Assembly: GCA_964617525.1 (NCBI GenBank)
Contig: CAZTWG010000037.1
Coordinates: 1-6,398 of the forward strand
Length of the DNA stretch: 6,398 nt
From: an uncultured Gammaproteobacteria bacterium
GTDB taxonomy: Bacteria > Patescibacteriota > Patescibacteriia > UBA2591 > UBA6264
Direction of reading: 5' to 3'
Part shown: piece by piece, positions 758 through 6,280 of the stretch
Layout: each line of letters starts with the position of its first letter
Numbering within the stretch: position 1 is the first letter of the stretch
Program-made: the position numbers and the translations under genes
The notes under the pieces: generated by a model
What the model was told of the DNA's origin: nothing
Databases searched by the model: none
Seen by the model: the letters and a program-made list of their open reading frames with translations, nothing else

Positions 758-799
758 ATCGCTATAGTCTAAAAAGACTATAGCGATTTTTCATTTTTT
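758..799 (+). terminator. Strong rho-independent terminator of the DUF218 gene
   Basis: A perfect 13-bp stem forms between ATCGCTATAGTCT (758-770) and AGACTATAGCGAT (775-787) around an AAAA loop. It is followed by TTTTCATTTTTT and sits 6 nt after the TAG stop. There is no T-run on the opposite strand, so it is unidirectional. Confidence 0.85.
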
Positions 800-947: not shown

Positions 948-2570
948 ATGAATCGTAATAAAGTCTGGCTTACTTTTGTTCTAGTTATAGTATTTACTCT
1001 TTTAGCCTTATTAGTTGATATTCCTCAGGTCCCAGATTGGGTTCCTGGCCATCAATGGTTCTCTAAGCACAAAGTTCATTTGGGTTTGGACTTGCAAGGA
1101 GGCACCCAGTTAATATATAGAACAGATACTAGCGATATTCCGTTAAAAGAAAAGGTTTCTGCAGTGGAGGGTGCTCGTAATGTTATTGAACGTAGGGTAA
1201 ATATTTTTGGTGTTACTGAACCAACAGTTCAAACTGCTAAACTAGAAGACGAATGGAATCTAATTATTGAATTGCCCGGAATTGAGGACGTTCATTCTGC
1301 GGTGAATATGATTGGAGAAACTCCAATATTGGAATTTAAAGAACAAGCTCCTCCTCACGAACTAAGTCAATCAGAAAAAGATGCGATTGCGGAATATAAT
1401 TCGGAAGCGAAAAAAAGAGCACAAGACATTCTAGAAAAGGCCTTAGCTAAAGATGCTGATTTTTCACTTTTAGCTCAAGAGTATTCGGAAGACCCAAATT
1501 CTAGCCCTGATGGTGGAAATTTAGGATGGTTCTCAAGAGGGACGATGATCCCTGAGTTTGAAAAAGTGGTTTTTGAAGATTTATCAGTAGGTCAAATTAC
1601 GCCGGAATTAGTAACCACAAGCATTGGTTACCATATTATTAAAAAAACAGACGAAAAAAAAGATGACCAGGGGAAAGTCACAGAAGTTATGGCTAGTCAT
1701 ATTTTAATTATCACTCAGTCTGAGGAAATGATTAAACAAAATGGACAATGGCAATATACAGGGTTAACCGGCAAACAACTTCAGAGAGCTTCAGTCACCT
1801 TTGATTCGCGAACAGGAGAGCCAGAAGTTTCTTTAGAATTCAACAAAGAAGGAGCAAAGCTTTTTGGAGAAATTACTGGTCGTAATATAAATAAGCCTGT
1901 AGCTATATTTTTAGATAATTATCCTTTAAGTATTCCTATTGTACGAGAAAAAATAACTAGTGGACAGGCAGTTATCAGCGGTAGCTTTAAATTGGCTGAG
2001 GCTAAAGAATTGGCACGTCGTTTGTCGGCTGGAGCATTACCTGTGCCTATTAAATTGATTGGACAACAGAATATTGGCCCTAGCTTAGGCAAGACGTCAG
2101 TAGAGAAGAGCATTATCGCAGGACTTTTGGGATTTTTATTGGTAGCCATCTTTATGATTGGTTTCTATAAATGGAGAGGAGTTATAGCAATAGTGGCTTT
2201 GTCAGTTTATGCTTTAATAGTTTTGGCTTTGTATAAATTAATACCAGTTACACTAACCTTAGCGGGCGTGGCTGGTTTTATTATTTCCTTAGGGATGGCA
2301 GTTGATGCTAATATTTTAATATTTGAACGTATTAAAGATGAAAGGCGTTTGGGGAAAGTATTACCTGTTGCTATTGATGATGGCTTTAGGCATGCATGGA
2401 CTGCTATTAGAGATGGAAATATAACTACCATCATTGTTTGTTTTATTCTTTATCAGTTTGGATCAGGATTGGTTAGAGGATTTGGTTTTACTTTAGGATT
2501 AGGAGTTCTTTTGAGTATGTTAACAGCTATTGTTGTTACTAGAACATTTTTAAGAATTACTACTAAATAA
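948..2570 (+). CDS. secD: Protein translocase subunit SecD with an inserted parvulin-type PPIase domain (540 aa)
   Basis: It has an N-terminal TM segment followed by LGLDLQGG, RRVNIFGVTEP-x-VQ, IIELPG and ILEFKE (P1 base motifs). P1-head-like sequence runs from LTGKQL to KPVAIFLDN, SGSF and GALPVPI. The C-terminal TM bundle carries GMAVDANILIFERIKDE and DGNITT. Residues about 133-258 form the extra domain, listed as a separate feature. Confidence 0.95.
   Translation: MNRNKVWLTFVLVIVFTLLALLVDIPQVPDWVPGHQWFSKHKVHLGLDLQGGTQLIYRTDTSDIPLKEKVSAVEGARNVIERRVNIFGVTEPTVQTAKLEDEWNLIIELPGIEDVHSAVNMIGETPILEFKEQAPPHELSQSEKDAIAEYNSEAKKRAQDILEKALAKDADFSLLAQEYSEDPNSSPDGGNLGWFSRGTMIPEFEKVVFEDLSVGQITPELVTTSIGYHIIKKTDEKKDDQGKVTEVMASHILIITQSEEMIKQNGQWQYTGLTGKQLQRASVTFDSRTGEPEVSLEFNKEGAKLFGEITGRNINKPVAIFLDNYPLSIPIVREKITSGQAVISGSFKLAEAKELARRLSAGALPVPIKLIGQQNIGPSLGKTSVEKSIIAGLLGFLLVAIFMIGFYKWRGVIAIVALSVYALIVLALYKLIPVTLTLAGVAGFIISLGMAVDANILIFERIKDERRLGKVLPVAIDDGFRHAWTAIRDGNITTIIVCFILYQFGSGLVRGFGFTLGLGVLLSMLTAIVVTRTFLRITTK
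1344..1721 (+). other. Parvulin/PpiC-type peptidyl-prolyl isomerase domain embedded in the SecD periplasmic P1 loop (about aa 133-258)
   Basis: DADFSLLAQEYSEDPNSSPDGGNLGWFSRGTMIPEFEKVVFEDLSVGQITPELVTTSIGYHIIKK aligns almost residue for residue with E. coli Par10/PpiC and B. subtilis PrsA as I recall them (DFxxLAxxxSxxxxxxxGGxLGxFxxGxMVPxFxxxxF...GYHIIK). The ASHILI strand is also present, but downstream of this block. Confidence 0.85.
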
Positions 2571-2637: not shown

Positions 2638-3513
2638 ATGTTTGACTTTGTTTCACACGGGAAAAAATTTTTACTTATATCAGGTATTTTATTAACAATA
2701 TCAATTTTAGCTTTGTTTGTTTTCGGATTAAAGTTGGGAATTGACTTTAAAGGTGGGTCAATGTTACAAGTTGCGTATCCAGAGTCAAGGCCTGATAGCT
2801 CCGAGATTATTAATCAATTAAATTCTTTAGATTTAGGAGAAATTCATATTCAGTCTACTGGCGCGAAGTCTGTAATTTTAAGGTTCTCCAAAATTAGCGA
2901 GGAACTCCATCAACAGGTTTTGGATAGTCTAGGAGACGTTGAGGAAGAGAGATACGAATCAGTTGGTCCAATTATTGGGAGGGAAGCTTCACGTAAAGCT
3001 ATATATGCTATTGTTTTATCTCTAATTGCTATTGTTCTATATGTTACCTGGGCTTTTAGAAAATTATCTCATGTTTTAAAAGAGGGTGAATCTTGGAGGT
3101 ATGGATTTGGGGCAACTATCGCATTAGCTCATGATGTTTTAATTTTATTGGGATTTTTTGCTATTTTGGGCCATTTCAAGGGAATAGAAATTAATGTTTA
3201 TTTTGTAACAGCTATTTTAACGGTCTTAGGGTATTCGGTGAACGATACTATTGTTATCTACGACCGCATCCGAGAGAATTTTTTACTTCATCGATCTAAA
3301 GATATGATCGGTACGATTAATTTAAGCCTTAACGAGACTGTGACTAGATCATTAAATACATCTTTGACTACTCTTTTTGTGCTTTTAGCGATTTATTTGT
3401 TTGGTGGAGCAGCAACACAAAGCTTTATTTTAGCTATGATGATTGGCGTTATCACTGGTACTTGGTCCTCAATCGCTATCGCTAGTCAGTTTCTTTTATT
3501 TAAAAGGAAATAG
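2638..3513 (+). CDS. secF: Protein translocase subunit SecF (291 aa)
   Basis: The N-terminus has the FDF motif and a TM segment, followed by GIDFKGGS, YSVNDTIVIYDRIREN and a C-terminal TM bundle. It lies immediately downstream of secD. Confidence 0.95.
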   Translation: MFDFVSHGKKFLLISGILLTISILALFVFGLKLGIDFKGGSMLQVAYPESRPDSSEIINQLNSLDLGEIHIQSTGAKSVILRFSKISEELHQQVLDSLGDVEEERYESVGPIIGREASRKAIYAIVLSLIAIVLYVTWAFRKLSHVLKEGESWRYGFGATIALAHDVLILLGFFAILGHFKGIEINVYFVTAILTVLGYSVNDTIVIYDRIRENFLLHRSKDMIGTINLSLNETVTRSLNTSLTTLFVLLAIYLFGGAATQSFILAMMIGVITGTWSSIAIASQFLLFKRK

Positions 3514-3611: not shown

Positions 3612-4709
3612 ATGCGCGTTGCTTTAGTGCACGATTTTTTAACGCAGTATGGGGGAGGAGAAAAAGTTTTAGAAGCTTTTCATGAAATCTGGCCACAAGC
3701 CCCGATTTTTACTTTATTCTATGATCCTAAAAAGATGAAGGGCAAGTTTAACGATTGTCGCATCAACGTTTCACCTATTCAGAATCTTCCATTTGGTGTC
3801 AAAAAATATCGTTGGTATTTACCACTTATGCCAAGCGCTATTGAACGTTTTAATCTTAGTGAGTTTGATTTAGTTATTTCTGATTGCTCGGCTTATAGCA
3901 AGGGAGTCTTAACTAAGCCTGGCACCATGCATATTTCTTACCTACACACTCCTACTCGCTATCTTTGGTCTGATGCTTACGAATACATTGATTCTTTAAG
4001 GGGTGGAGAGAAGTTAGTTAGTAAATTTTTAGCTCCAATTTTAACACGTTTACGTATTTGGGACCAAATTGCGGCTCAAAGACCTGATTACTTGATTGCT
4101 AATTCTAATTTTATAGCTCAGAGAATTAAGCATTATTACAAAAGGGATAGTGCTGTTATTTATCCACCAGTAGATATTTCAAACTTTAGTATTTCTAATA
4201 AAATTAAAGATTATTATCTAATTATTTCTCGTTTTCGTCCCTACAAGAGAGTGGACTTAGCTATTGAGGCCTTTAATAGACTAAAGATGCCATTAAAAGT
4301 TATCGGAACGGGTGAAGGCAAACTTTTGAAGAAAATAGCAGGTCCTAATATTGAATTTTTGGGCTTTGTCTCTGATAAAGAAAAAGCTAAATATTTATCT
4401 CATTGCAAGGCTTTTATTCATCCCCAAGAAGAAGATTTTGGCATTACTCCAATTGAGGCTATGGCCTCAGGGCGACCAGTTATTGCTTATAAGAAGGGGG
4501 GAGCTTTAGAAACAGTAGTTGATGGTTTGACTGGTAAATTTTTTGAGAATCAGACAGTGGAAGATTTGGCTAATGCAGTGCTTAAGCTTGATTTAAATAA
4601 AATTAATCCTAAAAAAATTCGTGAACATGCTGAAAAATTTAGTAAAAAGCAATTTAAAAAAGATATCAAAAATTTTGTCCAAAAACGGTTAGAAGAAAAT
4701 AGTTTATGA
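3612..4709 (+). CDS. GT-B fold glycosyltransferase, family 4 / group 1 type (365 aa); substrate unknown
   Basis: The N-terminus MRVALVHDFLTQYGGGEKV is typical of the GT4 N-terminal domain. The C-terminal EX7E region is EEDFGITPIEAMASGRPVIAYKKGGALETVVDGLTGKFF. The donor and acceptor cannot be assigned from sequence alone. Confidence 0.88.
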   Translation: MRVALVHDFLTQYGGGEKVLEAFHEIWPQAPIFTLFYDPKKMKGKFNDCRINVSPIQNLPFGVKKYRWYLPLMPSAIERFNLSEFDLVISDCSAYSKGVLTKPGTMHISYLHTPTRYLWSDAYEYIDSLRGGEKLVSKFLAPILTRLRIWDQIAAQRPDYLIANSNFIAQRIKHYYKRDSAVIYPPVDISNFSISNKIKDYYLIISRFRPYKRVDLAIEAFNRLKMPLKVIGTGEGKLLKKIAGPNIEFLGFVSDKEKAKYLSHCKAFIHPQEEDFGITPIEAMASGRPVIAYKKGGALETVVDGLTGKFFENQTVEDLANAVLKLDLNKINPKKIREHAEKFSKKQFKKDIKNFVQKRLEENSL

Positions 4710-6280
4710 TGGCGAAAATTTCTAAATTACAAAAAACTATTGCTGGCGGAGCAATGATTATTGCTCTTTTTTCTATTTTGAGTCGTTTATTAGGTCTTCT
4801 TAGAGACAGGTTGTTAAGTAGCACTTTTGGCGCTGGTGAAGTTTTGGACGCTTATTACGCAGCATTTAGGTTGCCTGATTTAATTTTCAATACATTAATT
4901 TTAGGCGCTTTGTCTTCGGCTTTTATCCCCATTTTCTTAAAGTATTGGAATAAGAATAAAGAAGAGGCATGGAATATTACAAACTCAGTTTTTAATATTT
5001 TATTTTTGATTGTTTTGGTTTTAGGTCTAGTGGCCTTTGCTCTCGCCCCTTCAATTATTAAATATTTGGTTCCAGGCTTTGATTTAGAAACTCAATCTTT
5101 AACAATTTCCTTGACTAGAATAATGCTAATTGGCATTTTGTTTTTTACCTGTAGTAATATTGCTAGCAGTGTTTTAAATTCTTTTAGGCGATTTTTAGCT
5201 TATAGTCTAGCCCCTTTAATGTATAATTTAGGCATTATTTTTGGAATTGTTTTTTTGGTTCCTAAGACTTCATTGGGTTTAAATGGTTTGGCGTGGGGTG
5301 TTGTTTTGGGTGCGGCTGGTCATTTTTTGATTCAAGTCCCAGCCTTATTAAAGGTTGGATATCGTTGGAAACCAGTTATAAAATCTCATCCAGCGATAAA
5401 AAGGATAATTACTCTTATGTTGCCTCGTTCTTTTGGGTTAGCAGTTGGTCAATTAAATTTTGTGGTTACTACTTTAGTTGCTTCTACTGTAACTGTTGGG
5501 GCAGTGGCGATTTATAGCTTGGCGTTTAATTTGTTTAATGTTCCAGTTGGTATTTTTGGTATTTCTTTGGCCATTTCTATTTTCCCCGCTTTAAGTAAAA
5601 GTTTTGCGATTGGAGATAAAAAAACCTTTATTTCCCAAATGTCAAAAACAATTTGCAGAATTCTATATCTAATTATTCCTATTACTGCTATTTATCTTGC
5701 ATTACGAACACAAATCGTTCGTTTGATTTTGGGGTCTGGTGTTTTTTCTTGGCGAGATACGGTTTTAACTGCTAGTGCTTTAGGGTTTTTTTCAATTTCG
5801 CTTTTGTCCCAAAGCTTAATTCCAATTTTTTCAAAAGCTTTCTATGCGACTCATGATACCTTAACTCCAGTTAAGATAGCGATTGTTAGTTTTATTGTTA
5901 ATATAATTGGTTGTTTCGTTTTGGGTCCTTCTATGGGAGTTGGTGGATTGGCTCTGGCTTTTTCTTTAGCTTCTTTTATAAATTTAATTTTACTGTATTA
6001 TTTTTTTCACAAGAAAATATTACCTTTGCCAAATAAAAAATTATGGTGGAGCTTTTTGAGAGCAATGGGGCTTTCTTTGATAATGTTGATAGTTGTTCAA
6101 TTAAGTAAGAGTTTAGTTGGTTCTTTGGTTAATATGCAAACTTTTATAGGAGTTTCAACCCAAACTATTGTTGCAGCTACAACTGGGTTTTTGTTTTATT
6201 TTATAGTTAGTTTACTTCTGCATTTCCCAGAAGTAGAAATAATTACTCAATTTTTAAAAAGAAAACAAAATAGAGTTTAA
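4706..6280 (+). CDS. murJ: Lipid II flippase MurJ (MviN, MOP superfamily; 524 aa)
   Basis: SRLLGLLRDRLLSSTFGAGEVLDAYYAAFRLPDLIFNTLILGALSSAFIPIF aligns with the E. coli MurJ N-terminus ([35 protein letters not shown]...AFSQAFVPIL). The rest of the protein is highly hydrophobic and consistent with many TM helices. Its ATG overlaps the GT stop codon as ATGA at 4706-4709. Confidence 0.93.
   Translation: MMAKISKLQKTIAGGAMIIALFSILSRLLGLLRDRLLSSTFGAGEVLDAYYAAFRLPDLIFNTLILGALSSAFIPIFLKYWNKNKEEAWNITNSVFNILFLIVLVLGLVAFALAPSIIKYLVPGFDLETQSLTISLTRIMLIGILFFTCSNIASSVLNSFRRFLAYSLAPLMYNLGIIFGIVFLVPKTSLGLNGLAWGVVLGAAGHFLIQVPALLKVGYRWKPVIKSHPAIKRIITLMLPRSFGLAVGQLNFVVTTLVASTVTVGAVAIYSLAFNLFNVPVGIFGISLAISIFPALSKSFAIGDKKTFISQMSKTICRILYLIIPITAIYLALRTQIVRLILGSGVFSWRDTVLTASALGFFSISLLSQSLIPIFSKAFYATHDTLTPVKIAIVSFIVNIIGCFVLGPSMGVGGLALAFSLASFINLILLYYFFHKKILPLPNKKLWWSFLRAMGLSLIMLIVVQLSKSLVGSLVNMQTFIGVSTQTIVAATTGFLFYFIVSLLLHFPEVEIITQFLKRKQNRV

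What the first reader, a model, noticed from the sequence alone, without database searches (positions are those of the whole stretch)
1344..1721. SecD carries a complete parvulin-type prolyl isomerase domain inside its periplasmic P1 loop
Seen in sequence: about 125 residues between the SecD motif ILEFKE and the P1-head-like segment (YTGLTGKQL...) are not SecD-like. They contain the parvulin signature DFxxLAxxYSxD...GGxLGWFxxGxMIPEFEKVVF...GYHIIKK plus ASHILI. Removing them leaves about 415 aa, the size of a minimal SecD. Established knowledge: SecDF acts on the trans side of SecYEG to pull or release emerging preproteins through its mobile P1 head. Parvulin-domain foldases (PrsA in monoderms; PpiD and SurA in E. 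coli) act on the same emerging chains as separate proteins, and PpiD is known to dock at the translocon. Inference: this is a Rosetta-stone style covalent fusion that places a foldase at the base-head hinge of the translocation motor, possibly replacing a stand-alone PrsA/PpiD in a reduced genome. I am not aware of a characterised SecD with this architecture, but I cannot search databases here.
Basis: partly seen in the sequence, partly recalled or inferred. Interest (0 to 1): 0.72.

Follow-up and report, generated by a model that had tools for sequence, protein, structure and literature searches.

The report
SecD with built-in, circularly permuted parvulin
The protein-export motor subunit SecD of this small-genome (Patescibacteria) bacterium carries a prolyl-isomerase folding domain, with one strand moved from front to back, built into its outward-facing loop; hundreds of related genomes share this undescribed design, which physically links protein export to protein folding.

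Summary
The 540-aa ORF at 948-2570 is a real SecD, with SecF immediately downstream. It has a parvulin (Rotamase, PF00639) domain at E 2.6e-21, nested between the P1-base and P1-head Pfam domains.

It is not an assembly artefact. The identical protein lies in the same gene context in four independent assemblies. All 120 closest protein clusters and all 80 best genome loci have the same architecture. Named sources are all Candidate Phyla Radiation lineages.

The strand carrying the first catalytic histidine (ASHILI, H251) follows the last strand (GYHIIKK, H229) instead of opening the domain. Moving it to the front raises the score against a canonical parvulin profile by about 14 bits in 207 of 207 sequences. 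AlphaFold2 predicts a confident hairpin there (pLDDT 96-98).

The residues matching the Pin1/Par14 catalytic and proline-pocket positions are conserved. A working foldase tethered at the translocon exit is therefore the likeliest reading, though activity is only inferred. Whether it replaces a separate PrsA could not be tested.

I found no paper describing this fusion or a permuted parvulin. Databases call these proteins simply "SecD". I rate it a new variant of known kinds, of moderate-to-high interest.

The parts
948..2570 (+). secD ORF, 540 aa, including the stop codon
   Evidence: ORF list. TIGR01129 secD matches at 385 bits over its full profile. Thermus SecDF 3aqp matches at E 6.9e-79. 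Foldseek of the AF2 model hits SecDF 5yhf, 5xan and 3aqp at E 1e-22 to 1e-24.
1167..1346 (+). P1-base N-terminal subdomain (aa 74-133). It ends with the strand TPILEFKEQ.
   Evidence: Pfam SecD_1st at E 1.5e-14. AF2 predicts a strand at aa 127-133. T125, P126, L128, F130 and E132 are invariant in 112 sequences.
1362..1718 (+). Circularly permuted parvulin (PpiC-type PPIase) domain, aa 139-257, in the order alpha1...beta4 then beta1'
   Evidence: Pfam Rotamase at E 2.6e-21 covers only profile positions 6-97, and Rotamase_3 only positions 30-115. The insert-only AF2 model has pLDDT 96-98 over aa 138-257. Translation checked.
1491..1493 (+). Codon for D182, which aligns with Pin1 C113 (Par14 D74 by motif, from memory)
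   Evidence: Alignment A3. The position is D in 114 and C in 4 of 120 sequences, and D in 73 and C in 3 of 76 genome loci.
1626..1661 (+). Parvulin beta4 (aa 227-238, GYHIIKKTDEKK) carrying H229, which aligns with Pin1 H157
   Evidence: AF2 strand at aa 227-238. G227 and H229 are invariant in 120 of 120 sequences.
1677..1712 (+). Displaced parvulin beta1' strand (aa 244-255, VTEVMASHILII) carrying H251, which aligns with Pin1 H59
   Evidence: Translation. AF2 strand at aa 244-255 forms a hairpin with beta4. H251 is present in 119 of 120 sequences. The strand is an island of conservation (0.78) between poorly conserved flanks (0.45 and 0.39).
1761..2045 (+). P1 head subdomain (aa 272-366)
   Evidence: Pfam SecDF_P1_head at E 7.2e-29, profile positions 20-114 of 114.
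2058..2555 (+). SecD transmembrane bundle TM2-6 (aa 371-536). It includes D453, which aligns with Thermus SecDF D340.
   Evidence: Pfam SecD_SecF_C. Residue-level alignment to 3aqp. D453 is invariant.
2638..3513 (+). secF, 291 aa, the partner subunit
   Evidence: TIGR00966 SecF at E 1.9e-80 and Pfam SecD_SecF_C at E 1e-53.
758..787 (+). Terminator-like hairpin (13-bp stem followed by a T run) between the DUF218 gene and secD. It suggests that secD starts a new transcription unit.
   Evidence: Consensus scan and sequence. This is a pattern match only.

Best explanation
The gene is the SecD subunit of a functional SecD/SecF proton-driven export motor from a Patescibacteria (CPR) bacterium.

In other SecDs a variable linker joins the last P1-base strand (...ILEFKE) to the P1 head. 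Here that linker is replaced by a full parvulin-type prolyl isomerase domain. The domain is circularly permuted. The chain enters at helix alpha1, runs through beta4 (GYHII, second catalytic His), turns back through a variable loop, and supplies the missing central strand beta1 (ASHILI, first catalytic His). It then leaves into the P1 head. The two connections to SecD therefore sit where a canonical parvulin has its beta1-alpha1 loop.

Shown: the architecture, the permutation at sequence level and in a predicted structure, clade-wide conservation, and conservation of the catalytic and proline-pocket residues.

Inferred: the domain is an active, non-phospho-specific PPIase and substrate-binding foldase held on the outer side of the membrane next to the SecYEG exit. 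There it would act in cis on unfolded secretory chains as the P1 head captures and releases them. That would do covalently what SurA, PpiD, PrsA and Mpn444 are proposed to do by docking.

The confidence of 0.65 is for the whole statement including the inferred foldase role. For the architecture and the permutation alone I would put it at about 0.9.
For: Architecture: the Rotamase domain is nested between SecD_1st and P1_head, and the secD equivalog profile is fully covered.

Not an artefact: the identical protein lies in the same secA-DUF218-secD-secF-GT4-murJ context in two ENA assemblies, one NCBI MAG and one JGI metagenome. There is no GC discontinuity across the insert.

Conservation:
- All 120 best clusters, from 100% down to 54% identity, carry PF00639 plus the SecD domains.
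- All 80 best genome loci have the architecture. 71 of them are complete single inserts and 4 are double inserts.

Permutation:
- The native insert matches Rotamase_3 only from profile position 30.
- Placing the trailing strand in front extends the match to position 15 and adds about 6 bits over the controls.
- Against PDB parvulins the rearranged sequence aligns over the full domain. Pin1 residues 52-163 score 35.7 bits against 24.7 in native order. PrsA 2jzv scores 46.4 bits against 36.9.
- With a canonical parvulin HMM the gain is +13 to +16 bits in 207 of 207 unique sequences over native-order, reversed, shuffled and N-flank controls.
- AF2 predicts beta4 (aa 227-238) and beta1' (aa 244-255) as a hairpin, with pLDDT 96-98 in the insert-only model.
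- The strand stays conserved while the loop before it varies from about 9 to about 60 aa.

Active site: H251, S180, D182 (alternating D/C), L192, M200, F204, T224 and H229 align with Pin1 H59, S111, C113, L122, M130, F134, T152 and H157. They are 90-100% conserved.

Motor intact: D453, the equivalent of Thermus D340, is invariant, and SecF is adjacent.

Precedents for SecDF-parvulin cooperation: PMC9987972, bioRxiv 10.1101/2024.09.05.611430 and PMC9643414.
Against: - No activity data exist. Parvulin domains with conserved-looking sites can be dispensable or inactive in chaperones such as SurA P1 and PpiD.
- I could not read model coordinates. The position of beta1' in the sheet and the direction the active site faces are deduced from the DSSP strings, pLDDT and sequence, not measured.
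- AF2 may place the strand by analogy with canonical parvulins.
- The full-length pTM is only 0.55, so the arrangement of the domains relative to each other is uncertain.
- Foldseek gave only moderate structural matches. The best was the B. fragilis PPIase 8hm3, with 117 aligned columns, rmsd 3.1 A and TMq 0.55.
- In one search the strand was located by an H[ILV][ILVF] motif, which the HMM itself rewards.
Confidence: 0.65

Rival explanations
1. The embedded parvulin is mainly a substrate-binding (holdase or docking) surface and prolyl isomerase catalysis is irrelevant. This would resemble the inactive parvulin domain of PpiD or the P1 domain of SurA. It would enlarge or tune the polypeptide-binding capacity of the P1 head.
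For: Known biology of PpiD and SurA, where chaperone function does not need PPIase activity (my own knowledge; context in PMC9643414 and PMC9987972). In double-insert relatives the outer parvulin has lost its histidines yet is retained. This shows that a catalytically dead copy is tolerated and presumably useful.
Against: In single-insert proteins such as this one, both histidines, the D/C position, the T/S position and the proline-pocket residues L192, M200 and F204 are kept in more than 90% of over 200 sequences. In double-insert proteins one complete histidine pair is kept in 12 of 14. That pattern suggests selection for one active site per protein.
Confidence: 0.22
2. The domain has been recruited for a role unrelated to general secretion. 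It might regulate or brake P1 head movement, or anchor SecDF to another envelope structure of these epibiotic cells such as the wall, S-layer or pili.
For: The site is insertion-tolerant and lineage-variable. E. coli SecD has about 170 extra residues before the head (5mg3_D residue 328 against Thermus residue 160). The loop inside the parvulin also accepts long low-complexity inserts. The neighbouring genes are envelope genes, GT4 and MurJ.
Against: Nothing specific points to another partner. Conservation of the catalytic pocket is better explained by peptide substrates. The neighbouring genes are ordinary housekeeping envelope genes.
Confidence: 0.08
3. The insert is an assembly chimera or a recent, non-functional insertion.
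For: None found.
Against: The identical protein occurs in four independent assemblies. The architecture holds in all 120 nearest clusters and all 80 genome loci spanning GC 27-62%. The reading frame is intact, composition is even, and column conservation in the insert (0.69 to 0.78) is close to that of the SecD core (0.76 to 0.77).
Confidence: 0.01

Closest known systems
SecDF of Thermus thermophilus / Deinococcus radiodurans (PDB 3AQP, 5YHF, 5XAN)
   Same: TM1, then P1 base, P1 head and TM2-6. The GG motif is present. The proton-relay Asp is conserved (D453 aligns with Thermus D340). SecF is the partner subunit. Sequence match E 6.9e-79 and fold match E 1e-22 to 1e-24.
   Different: SecD and SecF are separate genes here. 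The 42-aa base-to-head linker of Thermus is replaced by 140 aa that contain a parvulin domain. None of the solved SecDF structures matched here carries a parvulin at this site.
PrsA (Bacillus, Staphylococcus, Listeria), the lipoprotein foldase of monoderm bacteria
   Same: It is the closest solved parvulin by sequence (6vj6 E 4.8e-14; 1zk6, 4wo7, 2jzv). It is extracytoplasmic and membrane-tethered, it lacks the phospho-specific loop, and it is thought to act on chains leaving the Sec channel. In PrsA the parvulin is likewise nested inside another domain.
   Different: In PrsA the parvulin has canonical strand order, is nested in the NC chaperone domain, and the protein is separate from the translocon. 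Here there is no NC domain, the host is SecD, and the domain is circularly permuted.
SurA, PpiD-YfgM (E. coli) and Mpn444 (Mycoplasma pneumoniae), parvulin chaperones that associate with the Sec machinery
   Same: Parvulin-containing chaperones are placed at the translocon exit. AlphaFold puts the SurA parvulin domains on the SecDF P1 head (PMC9987972). Mpn444 cross-links to SecD (bioRxiv 10.1101/2024.09.05.611430). PpiD-YfgM contacts SecYEG (PMC9643414).
   Different: Those associations are non-covalent and between separate proteins. Here the link is covalent, is a single domain, and lacks the SurA-N/PpiD chaperone module.
Pin1 / Par10 / Par14 (the parvulin family, Pfam PF00639)
   Same: The same fold elements and the same catalytic and proline-pocket residues.
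   Different: The strand order is alpha1...beta4-beta1 instead of beta1-alpha1...beta4. There is no phosphate-binding loop and no WW domain. I found no report of a natural circularly permuted parvulin, within the limits of the open-access library searched.

Membership tests
SecD (protein translocase subunit, TIGR01129) | Full-length match to the SecD equivalog profile above its curated cut-off | tested here: met
   TIGR01129 scores 385.3 bits against a cut-off of 244.4, with profile positions 1-397 of 397 matched across aa 45-535.
SecD (protein translocase subunit, TIGR01129) | Domain order TM1, P1 base, P1 head, then a five-helix RND-type bundle | tested here: met
   Pfam SecD_1st, P1_head and SecD_SecF_C occur in that order. 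The AF2 model has helices at aa 2-24 and four long helices spanning aa 382-539. Foldseek hits SecDF structures at E down to 3e-24.
SecD (protein translocase subunit, TIGR01129) | Conserved transmembrane Asp of the proton pathway (Thermus SecDF D340) | tested here: met
   D453 aligns with Thermus D340 in the printed alignment and is invariant in 112 sequences. That this residue is essential comes from my own knowledge of the Thermus SecDF work.
SecD (protein translocase subunit, TIGR01129) | A partner SecF encoded alongside | tested here: met
   The ORF at 2638-3513 matches TIGR00966 SecF at E 1.9e-80.
SecD (protein translocase subunit, TIGR01129) | PMF-dependent enhancement of protein export | not testable with these tools
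   This needs genetics or biochemistry.
Parvulin / PpiC-type PPIase (Pfam PF00639, PF13616) | Significant match to the family profile | tested here: met
   PF00639 scores 76.8 bits (cut-off 21.7) and PF13616 scores 78.7 bits (cut-off 22.5).
Parvulin / PpiC-type PPIase (Pfam PF00639, PF13616) | Canonical secondary-structure order, beta1-alpha1-alpha2-alpha3-beta2-alpha4-beta3-beta4 | tested here: not met
   Nothing before alpha1 matches beta1. The profile match starts at Rotamase_3 position 30. The beta1-like strand follows beta4. All fold elements are present but in permuted order.
Parvulin / PpiC-type PPIase (Pfam PF00639, PF13616) | The dual-histidine motif, the Cys/Asp position and the Thr/Ser position (Pin1 H59, C113, T152, H157), plus the proline pocket (L122, M130, F134) | tested here: met
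   H251, D182, T224, H229, L192, M200 and F204 align with those residues.
Parvulin / PpiC-type PPIase (Pfam PF00639, PF13616) | Parvulin three-dimensional fold | tested here: inconclusive
Parvulin / PpiC-type PPIase (Pfam PF00639, PF13616) | Catalysis of prolyl cis/trans isomerisation | not testable with these tools
   This needs an enzyme assay.
PrsA-type foldase (NCBIfam PRK03002 and related models) | Lipoprotein with an N/C chaperone domain flanking the parvulin, scoring above the model cut-off | tested here: not met
   The PrsA models match only aa 156-238, at 56 bits against cut-offs of 343-361. No SurA_N or PrsA NC domain was found.

The most novel reading that the evidence does not exclude
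The permuted parvulin is mechanically coupled to the proton-driven swing of the P1 head. Its two tethers emerge where the beta1-alpha1 loop normally sits. In Pin1 that loop borders the substrate cleft. Head movement could therefore open, close or reposition the isomerase site on the emerging chain. The result would be a PMF-powered 'pull-and-isomerise' device that makes a separate PrsA- or PpiD-type foldase unnecessary in the CPR lineages where the fusion was found (Falkow-, Buchanan-, Magasanik-, Kerfeld-, Kuenen-, Komeili-, Veblen- and Moranbacteria).
Probability: 0.15. Interest if true: 0.85.

Novelty: new variant of a known kind. Interest (0 to 1): 0.62.

Why it matters
Whether SecDF merely pulls chains out of SecYEG or also hands them to folding factors is an open question. 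So far the evidence for SecDF-parvulin contacts is indirect: AlphaFold docking of SurA, cross-links to Mpn444, and PpiD near SecY.

A natural, clade-wide covalent fusion is the classical Rosetta-stone argument that the two activities work together. It also offers a compact single-polypeptide system in which to test this by structure determination, by PPIase assays on the excised domain, and by insert deletion or His-to-Ala mutants.

The domain also appears to be the first natural circular permutant of the parvulin fold. Its relatives include a case where a canonical parvulin is nested inside the permuted one. That makes it a useful case for studying how domain insertion and permutation evolve.

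Finally, surveys of CPR gene content that count 'PrsA' or 'SecD' by domain hits should be aware of this architecture.

Tried and rejected
1. Origin of the insert. The best non-SecD hits in the representative search were proteins with 2-4 tandem parvulins. A follow-up with P0122 showed that these come from Planctomycetes, Myxococcales and Deltaproteobacteria with large genomes. They scored high only because several domains add up. This gave no lead on origin.

2. A stand-alone permuted parvulin family. P0263 is a membrane-anchored, non-SecD protein with the same alpha1...beta4-beta1' unit. It turned out to be a singleton whose nearest relatives are SecD inserts. It is a one-off, not a family.

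3. Testing whether these genomes lack a separate prsA, ppiD or surA. Only 10 kb flanks can be fetched. The cluster look-up gave almost no names. The supplements of PMC9166423 hold nothing on prsA. The question remains untested.

4. Could the native SecD strand TPILEFKE serve as parvulin beta1? Placing it in front of the domain does not extend the profile match. Rejected.

6. Literature. I searched for SecD + parvulin, SecD + peptidyl-prolyl + Patescibacteria, SecDF + PPIase + fusion + CPR, and circular permutation or circularly permuted + parvulin. No description turned up.

7. Fusion outside CPR. Several loci are labelled Gammaproteobacteria, Bdellovibrionales, Lysobacteraceae, Bathyarchaeia or Saccharibacteria. 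Their SecDs are 47-84% identical over the full length to CPR-labelled ones and interleave with them. I treat these labels as unreliable.

8. Rfam, tRNA and promoter/terminator scans of the window. They found no RNA genes, only a terminator-like hairpin upstream of secD.
Full report
**What is in the window**

The window holds five co-directional genes:
- a DUF218 gene (183-752)
- secD (948-2570, 540 aa)
- secF (2638-3513)
- a GT4 glycosyltransferase (3612-4709)
- murJ (4706-6280)

A strong terminator-like hairpin at 758-787 separates the DUF218 gene from secD. GC content is low and even, 0.29-0.39, with no break at the insert. No RNA genes were found.

**Checking the observation**

The SecD protein gives these Pfam hits:
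- SecD_1st, aa 74-133
- Rotamase PF00639, aa 142-235 (E 2.6e-21)
- Rotamase_3, aa 148-236 (E 6.6e-22)
- SecDF_P1_head, aa 272-366 (E 7.2e-29)
- SecD_SecF_C, aa 371-536

The NCBIfam secD equivalog is matched end to end (profile 1-397) across aa 45-535 at 385 bits, against a cut-off of 244. SecD is therefore complete around a foreign segment.

Against Thermus SecDF (3aqp), query 30-132 aligns to residues 25-117 and query 273-535 to residues 160-422. That means 140 residues here stand where Thermus has 42. E. coli SecD has a much longer segment at the same place (5mg3_D, head alignment starting at residue 328). This junction therefore tolerates lineage-specific insertions.

The finding's coordinates (aa 133-258) enclose the parvulin unit.

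**It is real and widespread**

The identical protein is found on at least ten contigs. Four of them are shown, from two ENA assemblies, one NCBI MAG (GCA_053986565.1) and one JGI metagenome. All have the same secA-DUF218-secD-secF-GT4-murJ neighbourhood.

All 120 best protein clusters, from 100% down to 54% identity, carry PF00639 together with the SecD families. Where a source names them, they are called only 'protein translocase subunit SecD', from Patescibacteria, Parcubacteria or Kuenenbacteria.

A scan of species-representative genomes with an alignment of the insert plus its flanks confirmed at least 320 stretches. The best 80 loci all span both SecD flanks and the insert. Of these, 71 are complete single-insert SecDs and 4 are double-insert, over a GC range of 27-62%.

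The record titles name these groups:
- Falkowbacteria, Buchananbacteria and Magasanikbacteria
- Kerfeldbacteria, Kuenenbacteria and Komeilibacteria
- Veblenbacteria and Moranbacteria
- 'Parcubacteria' and 'Patescibacteria group'

Some loci carry odd labels (Gammaproteobacteria, Bdellovibrionales, Bathyarchaeia and others). Their SecDs are 47-84% identical over the full length to CPR-labelled ones. I treat those labels as unreliable.

In the exhaustive search of 50%-identity representatives, about 31 of the top 150 hits are SecD-type.

**The parvulin is circularly permuted**

In canonical parvulins the strand 'xSHILv' (beta1, first catalytic His) opens the domain. Here the profile matches begin only at helix alpha1 (Rotamase_3 from position 30 of 116). 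ASHILI lies after GYHIIKK (beta4).

I tested this in several ways.

(a) Pfam scan of rearranged constructs. Placing aa 242-260 in front of aa 139-238 extends the Rotamase_3 match to profile position 15 and the PF00639 match to position 1. The score rises to 87.1 bits, against 81.3 with a reversed strand or with no strand. A tandem duplicate of the insert gives a full-length match that spans the junction between copies. Placing the native SecD strand in front adds nothing.

(b) Search against PDB sequences. The rearranged sequence aligns over whole parvulin domains:

| PDB parvulin | Aligned region | Rearranged (bits) | Native order (bits) |
|---|---|---|---|
| Pin1 | residues 52-163 | 35.7 | 24.7 |
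| S. aureus PrsA (2jzv) | residues 9-109 | 46.4 | 36.9 |
| Ess1 (1yw5) | residues 67-176 | 42.5 | 33.6 |
| Pin1At (1j6y) | residues 26-138 | 38.1 | 27.4 |

(c) Canonical parvulin HMM across the family. I built the HMM from 200 canonical domains of unrelated tandem-parvulin proteins. Moving the strand raises the score in 207 of 207 unique single-insert SecDs:
- by a mean of +15.6 bits over native order
- by +13.8 bits over a reversed strand
- by +13.3 bits over a shuffled strand
- by +14.4 bits over the native N-flank

The alignment then starts at the beta1 positions in 100% of cases, against 0-11% in the controls. One caveat applies: the strand was located by an H[ILV][ILVF] motif, which the HMM rewards. 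Still, 207 of 210 proteins have that motif in the right place.

(d) AlphaFold2. The full-length model (112-sequence alignment) has mean pLDDT 83.7, with 82-90 over the insert. Its secondary structure is helix 141-165, helix 172-179, strand 191-196, helix 202-211, a short beta3, strand 227-238 and strand 244-255. The last two strands form a hairpin. An insert-only model has pLDDT 96-98 over aa 138-257, including the displaced strand.

(e) Conservation. The strand is an island (column consensus 0.78) between poorly conserved segments (0.45 and 0.39). The SecD core scores 0.76-0.77. The loop before the strand varies from about 9 to about 60 residues, including long acidic Gly/Val/Glu-rich inserts in P0127 and P0148, yet the strand is always kept.

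(f) Double-insert relatives:

| Element | Has His |
|---|---|
| First unit, beta4 | 1 of 14 |
| Middle strand | 14 of 14 |
| Second unit, beta4 | 12 of 14 |
| Trailing strand | 3 of 14 |

The middle strand therefore pairs with the second domain, which is canonical and intact. Pfam aligns that domain from profile position 1-3. The trailing strand goes with the degenerate first unit. The first unit resembles the single-insert domain, scoring 60 bits with the single-insert HMM against 45 with the canonical HMM. The second unit resembles canonical parvulins, scoring 96 against 80. The simplest reading is that a canonical parvulin was inserted into the beta4-beta1' loop of the permuted one. This again treats the trailing strand as an integral part of the first domain.

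**Is the active site intact?**

I aligned the rearranged insert with the Pin1 PPIase domain, E. coli Par10 and the canonical consensus. They agree with the PDB alignment coordinates.

| This SecD | Pin1 |
|---|---|
| H251 | H59 |
| S180 | S111 |
| D182 | C113 |
| L192 | L122 |
| M200 | M130 |
| F204 | F134 |
| T224 | T152 |
| H229 | H157 |

Conservation across 120 clusters:

| Residue | Count |
|---|---|
| H229 | 120 of 120 |
| H251 | 119 of 120 |
| D182 | D 114, C 4 |
| T224 | T 92, S 28 |
| F204 | 120 of 120 |
| M200 | 110 of 120 |
| L192 | 107 of 120 |

The 76 single-insert SecDs from the genome scan give the same picture. The D/C alternation at position 182 mirrors the Asp/Cys alternatives known among active parvulins (Par14 versus Pin1). 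There is no Pin1-type phosphate loop, so the domain belongs with the non-phospho-specific parvulins such as PrsA, SurA and Par10. PrsA and SurA are also its best PDB sequence matches (6vj6 at E 4.8e-14, SurA 1m5y).

**Mechanism**

Shown:
- a complete SecD/SecF motor, with D453 aligning to Thermus D340 and invariant
- a selectively maintained parvulin in the extracytoplasmic P1 region, at the junction between base and head

Inferred:
- The domain is an active PPIase and peptide-binding module, tethered next to the SecYEG exit.
- It acts on unfolded chains as the P1 head binds and releases them.
- The permutation puts both tethers where the beta1-alpha1 loop normally is. In Pin1 that loop borders the substrate cleft. 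The active site should therefore lie close to the hinge.
- Coupling of head movement to the isomerase is speculative.

Published work supplies non-covalent counterparts:
- AlphaFold consistently docks the SurA parvulin domains on the SecDF P1 head (PMC9987972).
- The Mycoplasma parvulin lipoprotein Mpn444 cross-links to SecD and has PPIase activity (bioRxiv 10.1101/2024.09.05.611430).
- PpiD-YfgM sits at SecYEG (PMC9643414).

**Rival explanations**

- A chaperone-only role, as in PpiD. This is possible and not exclusive of the foldase reading. It is weakened by the conserved catalytic set and by retention of one intact histidine pair in 12 of 14 double-insert proteins.
- A regulatory or anchoring role. 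There is no specific support for this.
- An artefact. This is refuted.

This could not be tested, because whole genomes are out of reach with these tools. A CPR survey reports PrsA in members of all CPR classes (PMC9166423). Replacement is therefore unproven and perhaps unlikely as a general rule.

**Novelty**

Databases label these proteins simply as SecD. The Pfam domain combination is visible in precomputed annotations. Five literature searches found no description of a SecD-parvulin fusion or of a circularly permuted parvulin. The library searched covers open-access papers only.

I class it as a new variant of known kinds, SecD and parvulin. It has two unusual features: the host protein and the permutation.

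Noticed in passing
Related proteins P0124, P0134, P0178, P0193, P0211, P0245, P0114; loci L081-L084: Some CPR SecDs (about 650-716 aa) carry two parvulin units at the same site. The histidine pattern and HMM affinities suggest a canonical, intact parvulin nested in the beta4-beta1' loop of a degenerate permuted one, which is itself nested in SecD. That makes three levels of nesting. L083 keeps all four histidines.
   Followed up: partly
Related proteins P0127 (aa 245-300) and P0148 (aa 228-282), and several members of alignment A2: The loop between parvulin beta4 and the displaced beta1' strand is expanded to about 25-60 residues of acidic Gly/Val/Glu-rich low-complexity sequence in some lineages. 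The strand itself stays conserved.
   Followed up: partly
Related protein P0148 (905 aa): A single-chain SecDF fusion that also carries the permuted parvulin insert. This shows that the insert occurs in both split and fused SecD/SecF gene arrangements.
   Followed up: no
Related protein P0263 (456 aa, a single Logan contig): A non-SecD protein with an N-terminal cytoplasmic segment and one TM helix. These are followed by the same permuted parvulin unit (GYHIIKK...EVRVSHILF) and a roughly 240-aa C-terminal region with no Pfam hit. Its parvulin is up to 61% identical to SecD inserts, and no other protein shares its overall architecture.
   Followed up: yes
Loci L005, L006, L010, L021, L032, L058, L076 and others: Many MAG records, mostly third-party (TPA_asm) assemblies, that carry CPR-type SecD-parvulin genes are titled 'uncultured Gammaproteobacteria', 'Bdellovibrionales', 'Lysobacteraceae', 'Bathyarchaeia' or 'Saccharibacteria'. 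Their SecDs are 47-84% identical to CPR-labelled ones, so the public taxonomic labels look wrong or are placeholders.
   Followed up: partly
window 758-787 and 882-909: A 13-bp-stem terminator-like hairpin with a T run lies right after the DUF218 gene. A promoter-like site (TTGCCT, 16-nt spacer, TAAAAT with an upstream TG) lies about 40 nt before the secD start. No obvious Shine-Dalgarno sequence precedes the ATG at 948.
   Followed up: no
window 4706-4709; L001 2635-5864 and 6276-9029: The GT4 and murJ genes overlap by 4 bases (ATGA-type overlap). On the parent contig secA lies two genes upstream of secD, so secA, secD and secF are clustered. Two tandem paralogues of cofactor-independent phosphoglycerate mutase sit further upstream.
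   Followed up: no
Literature: PMC9166423: A CPR genome survey reports PrsA in all CPR classes from automated annotation. It is worth checking whether some of those calls come from the SecD-embedded parvulin and not from separate genes.
   Followed up: partly
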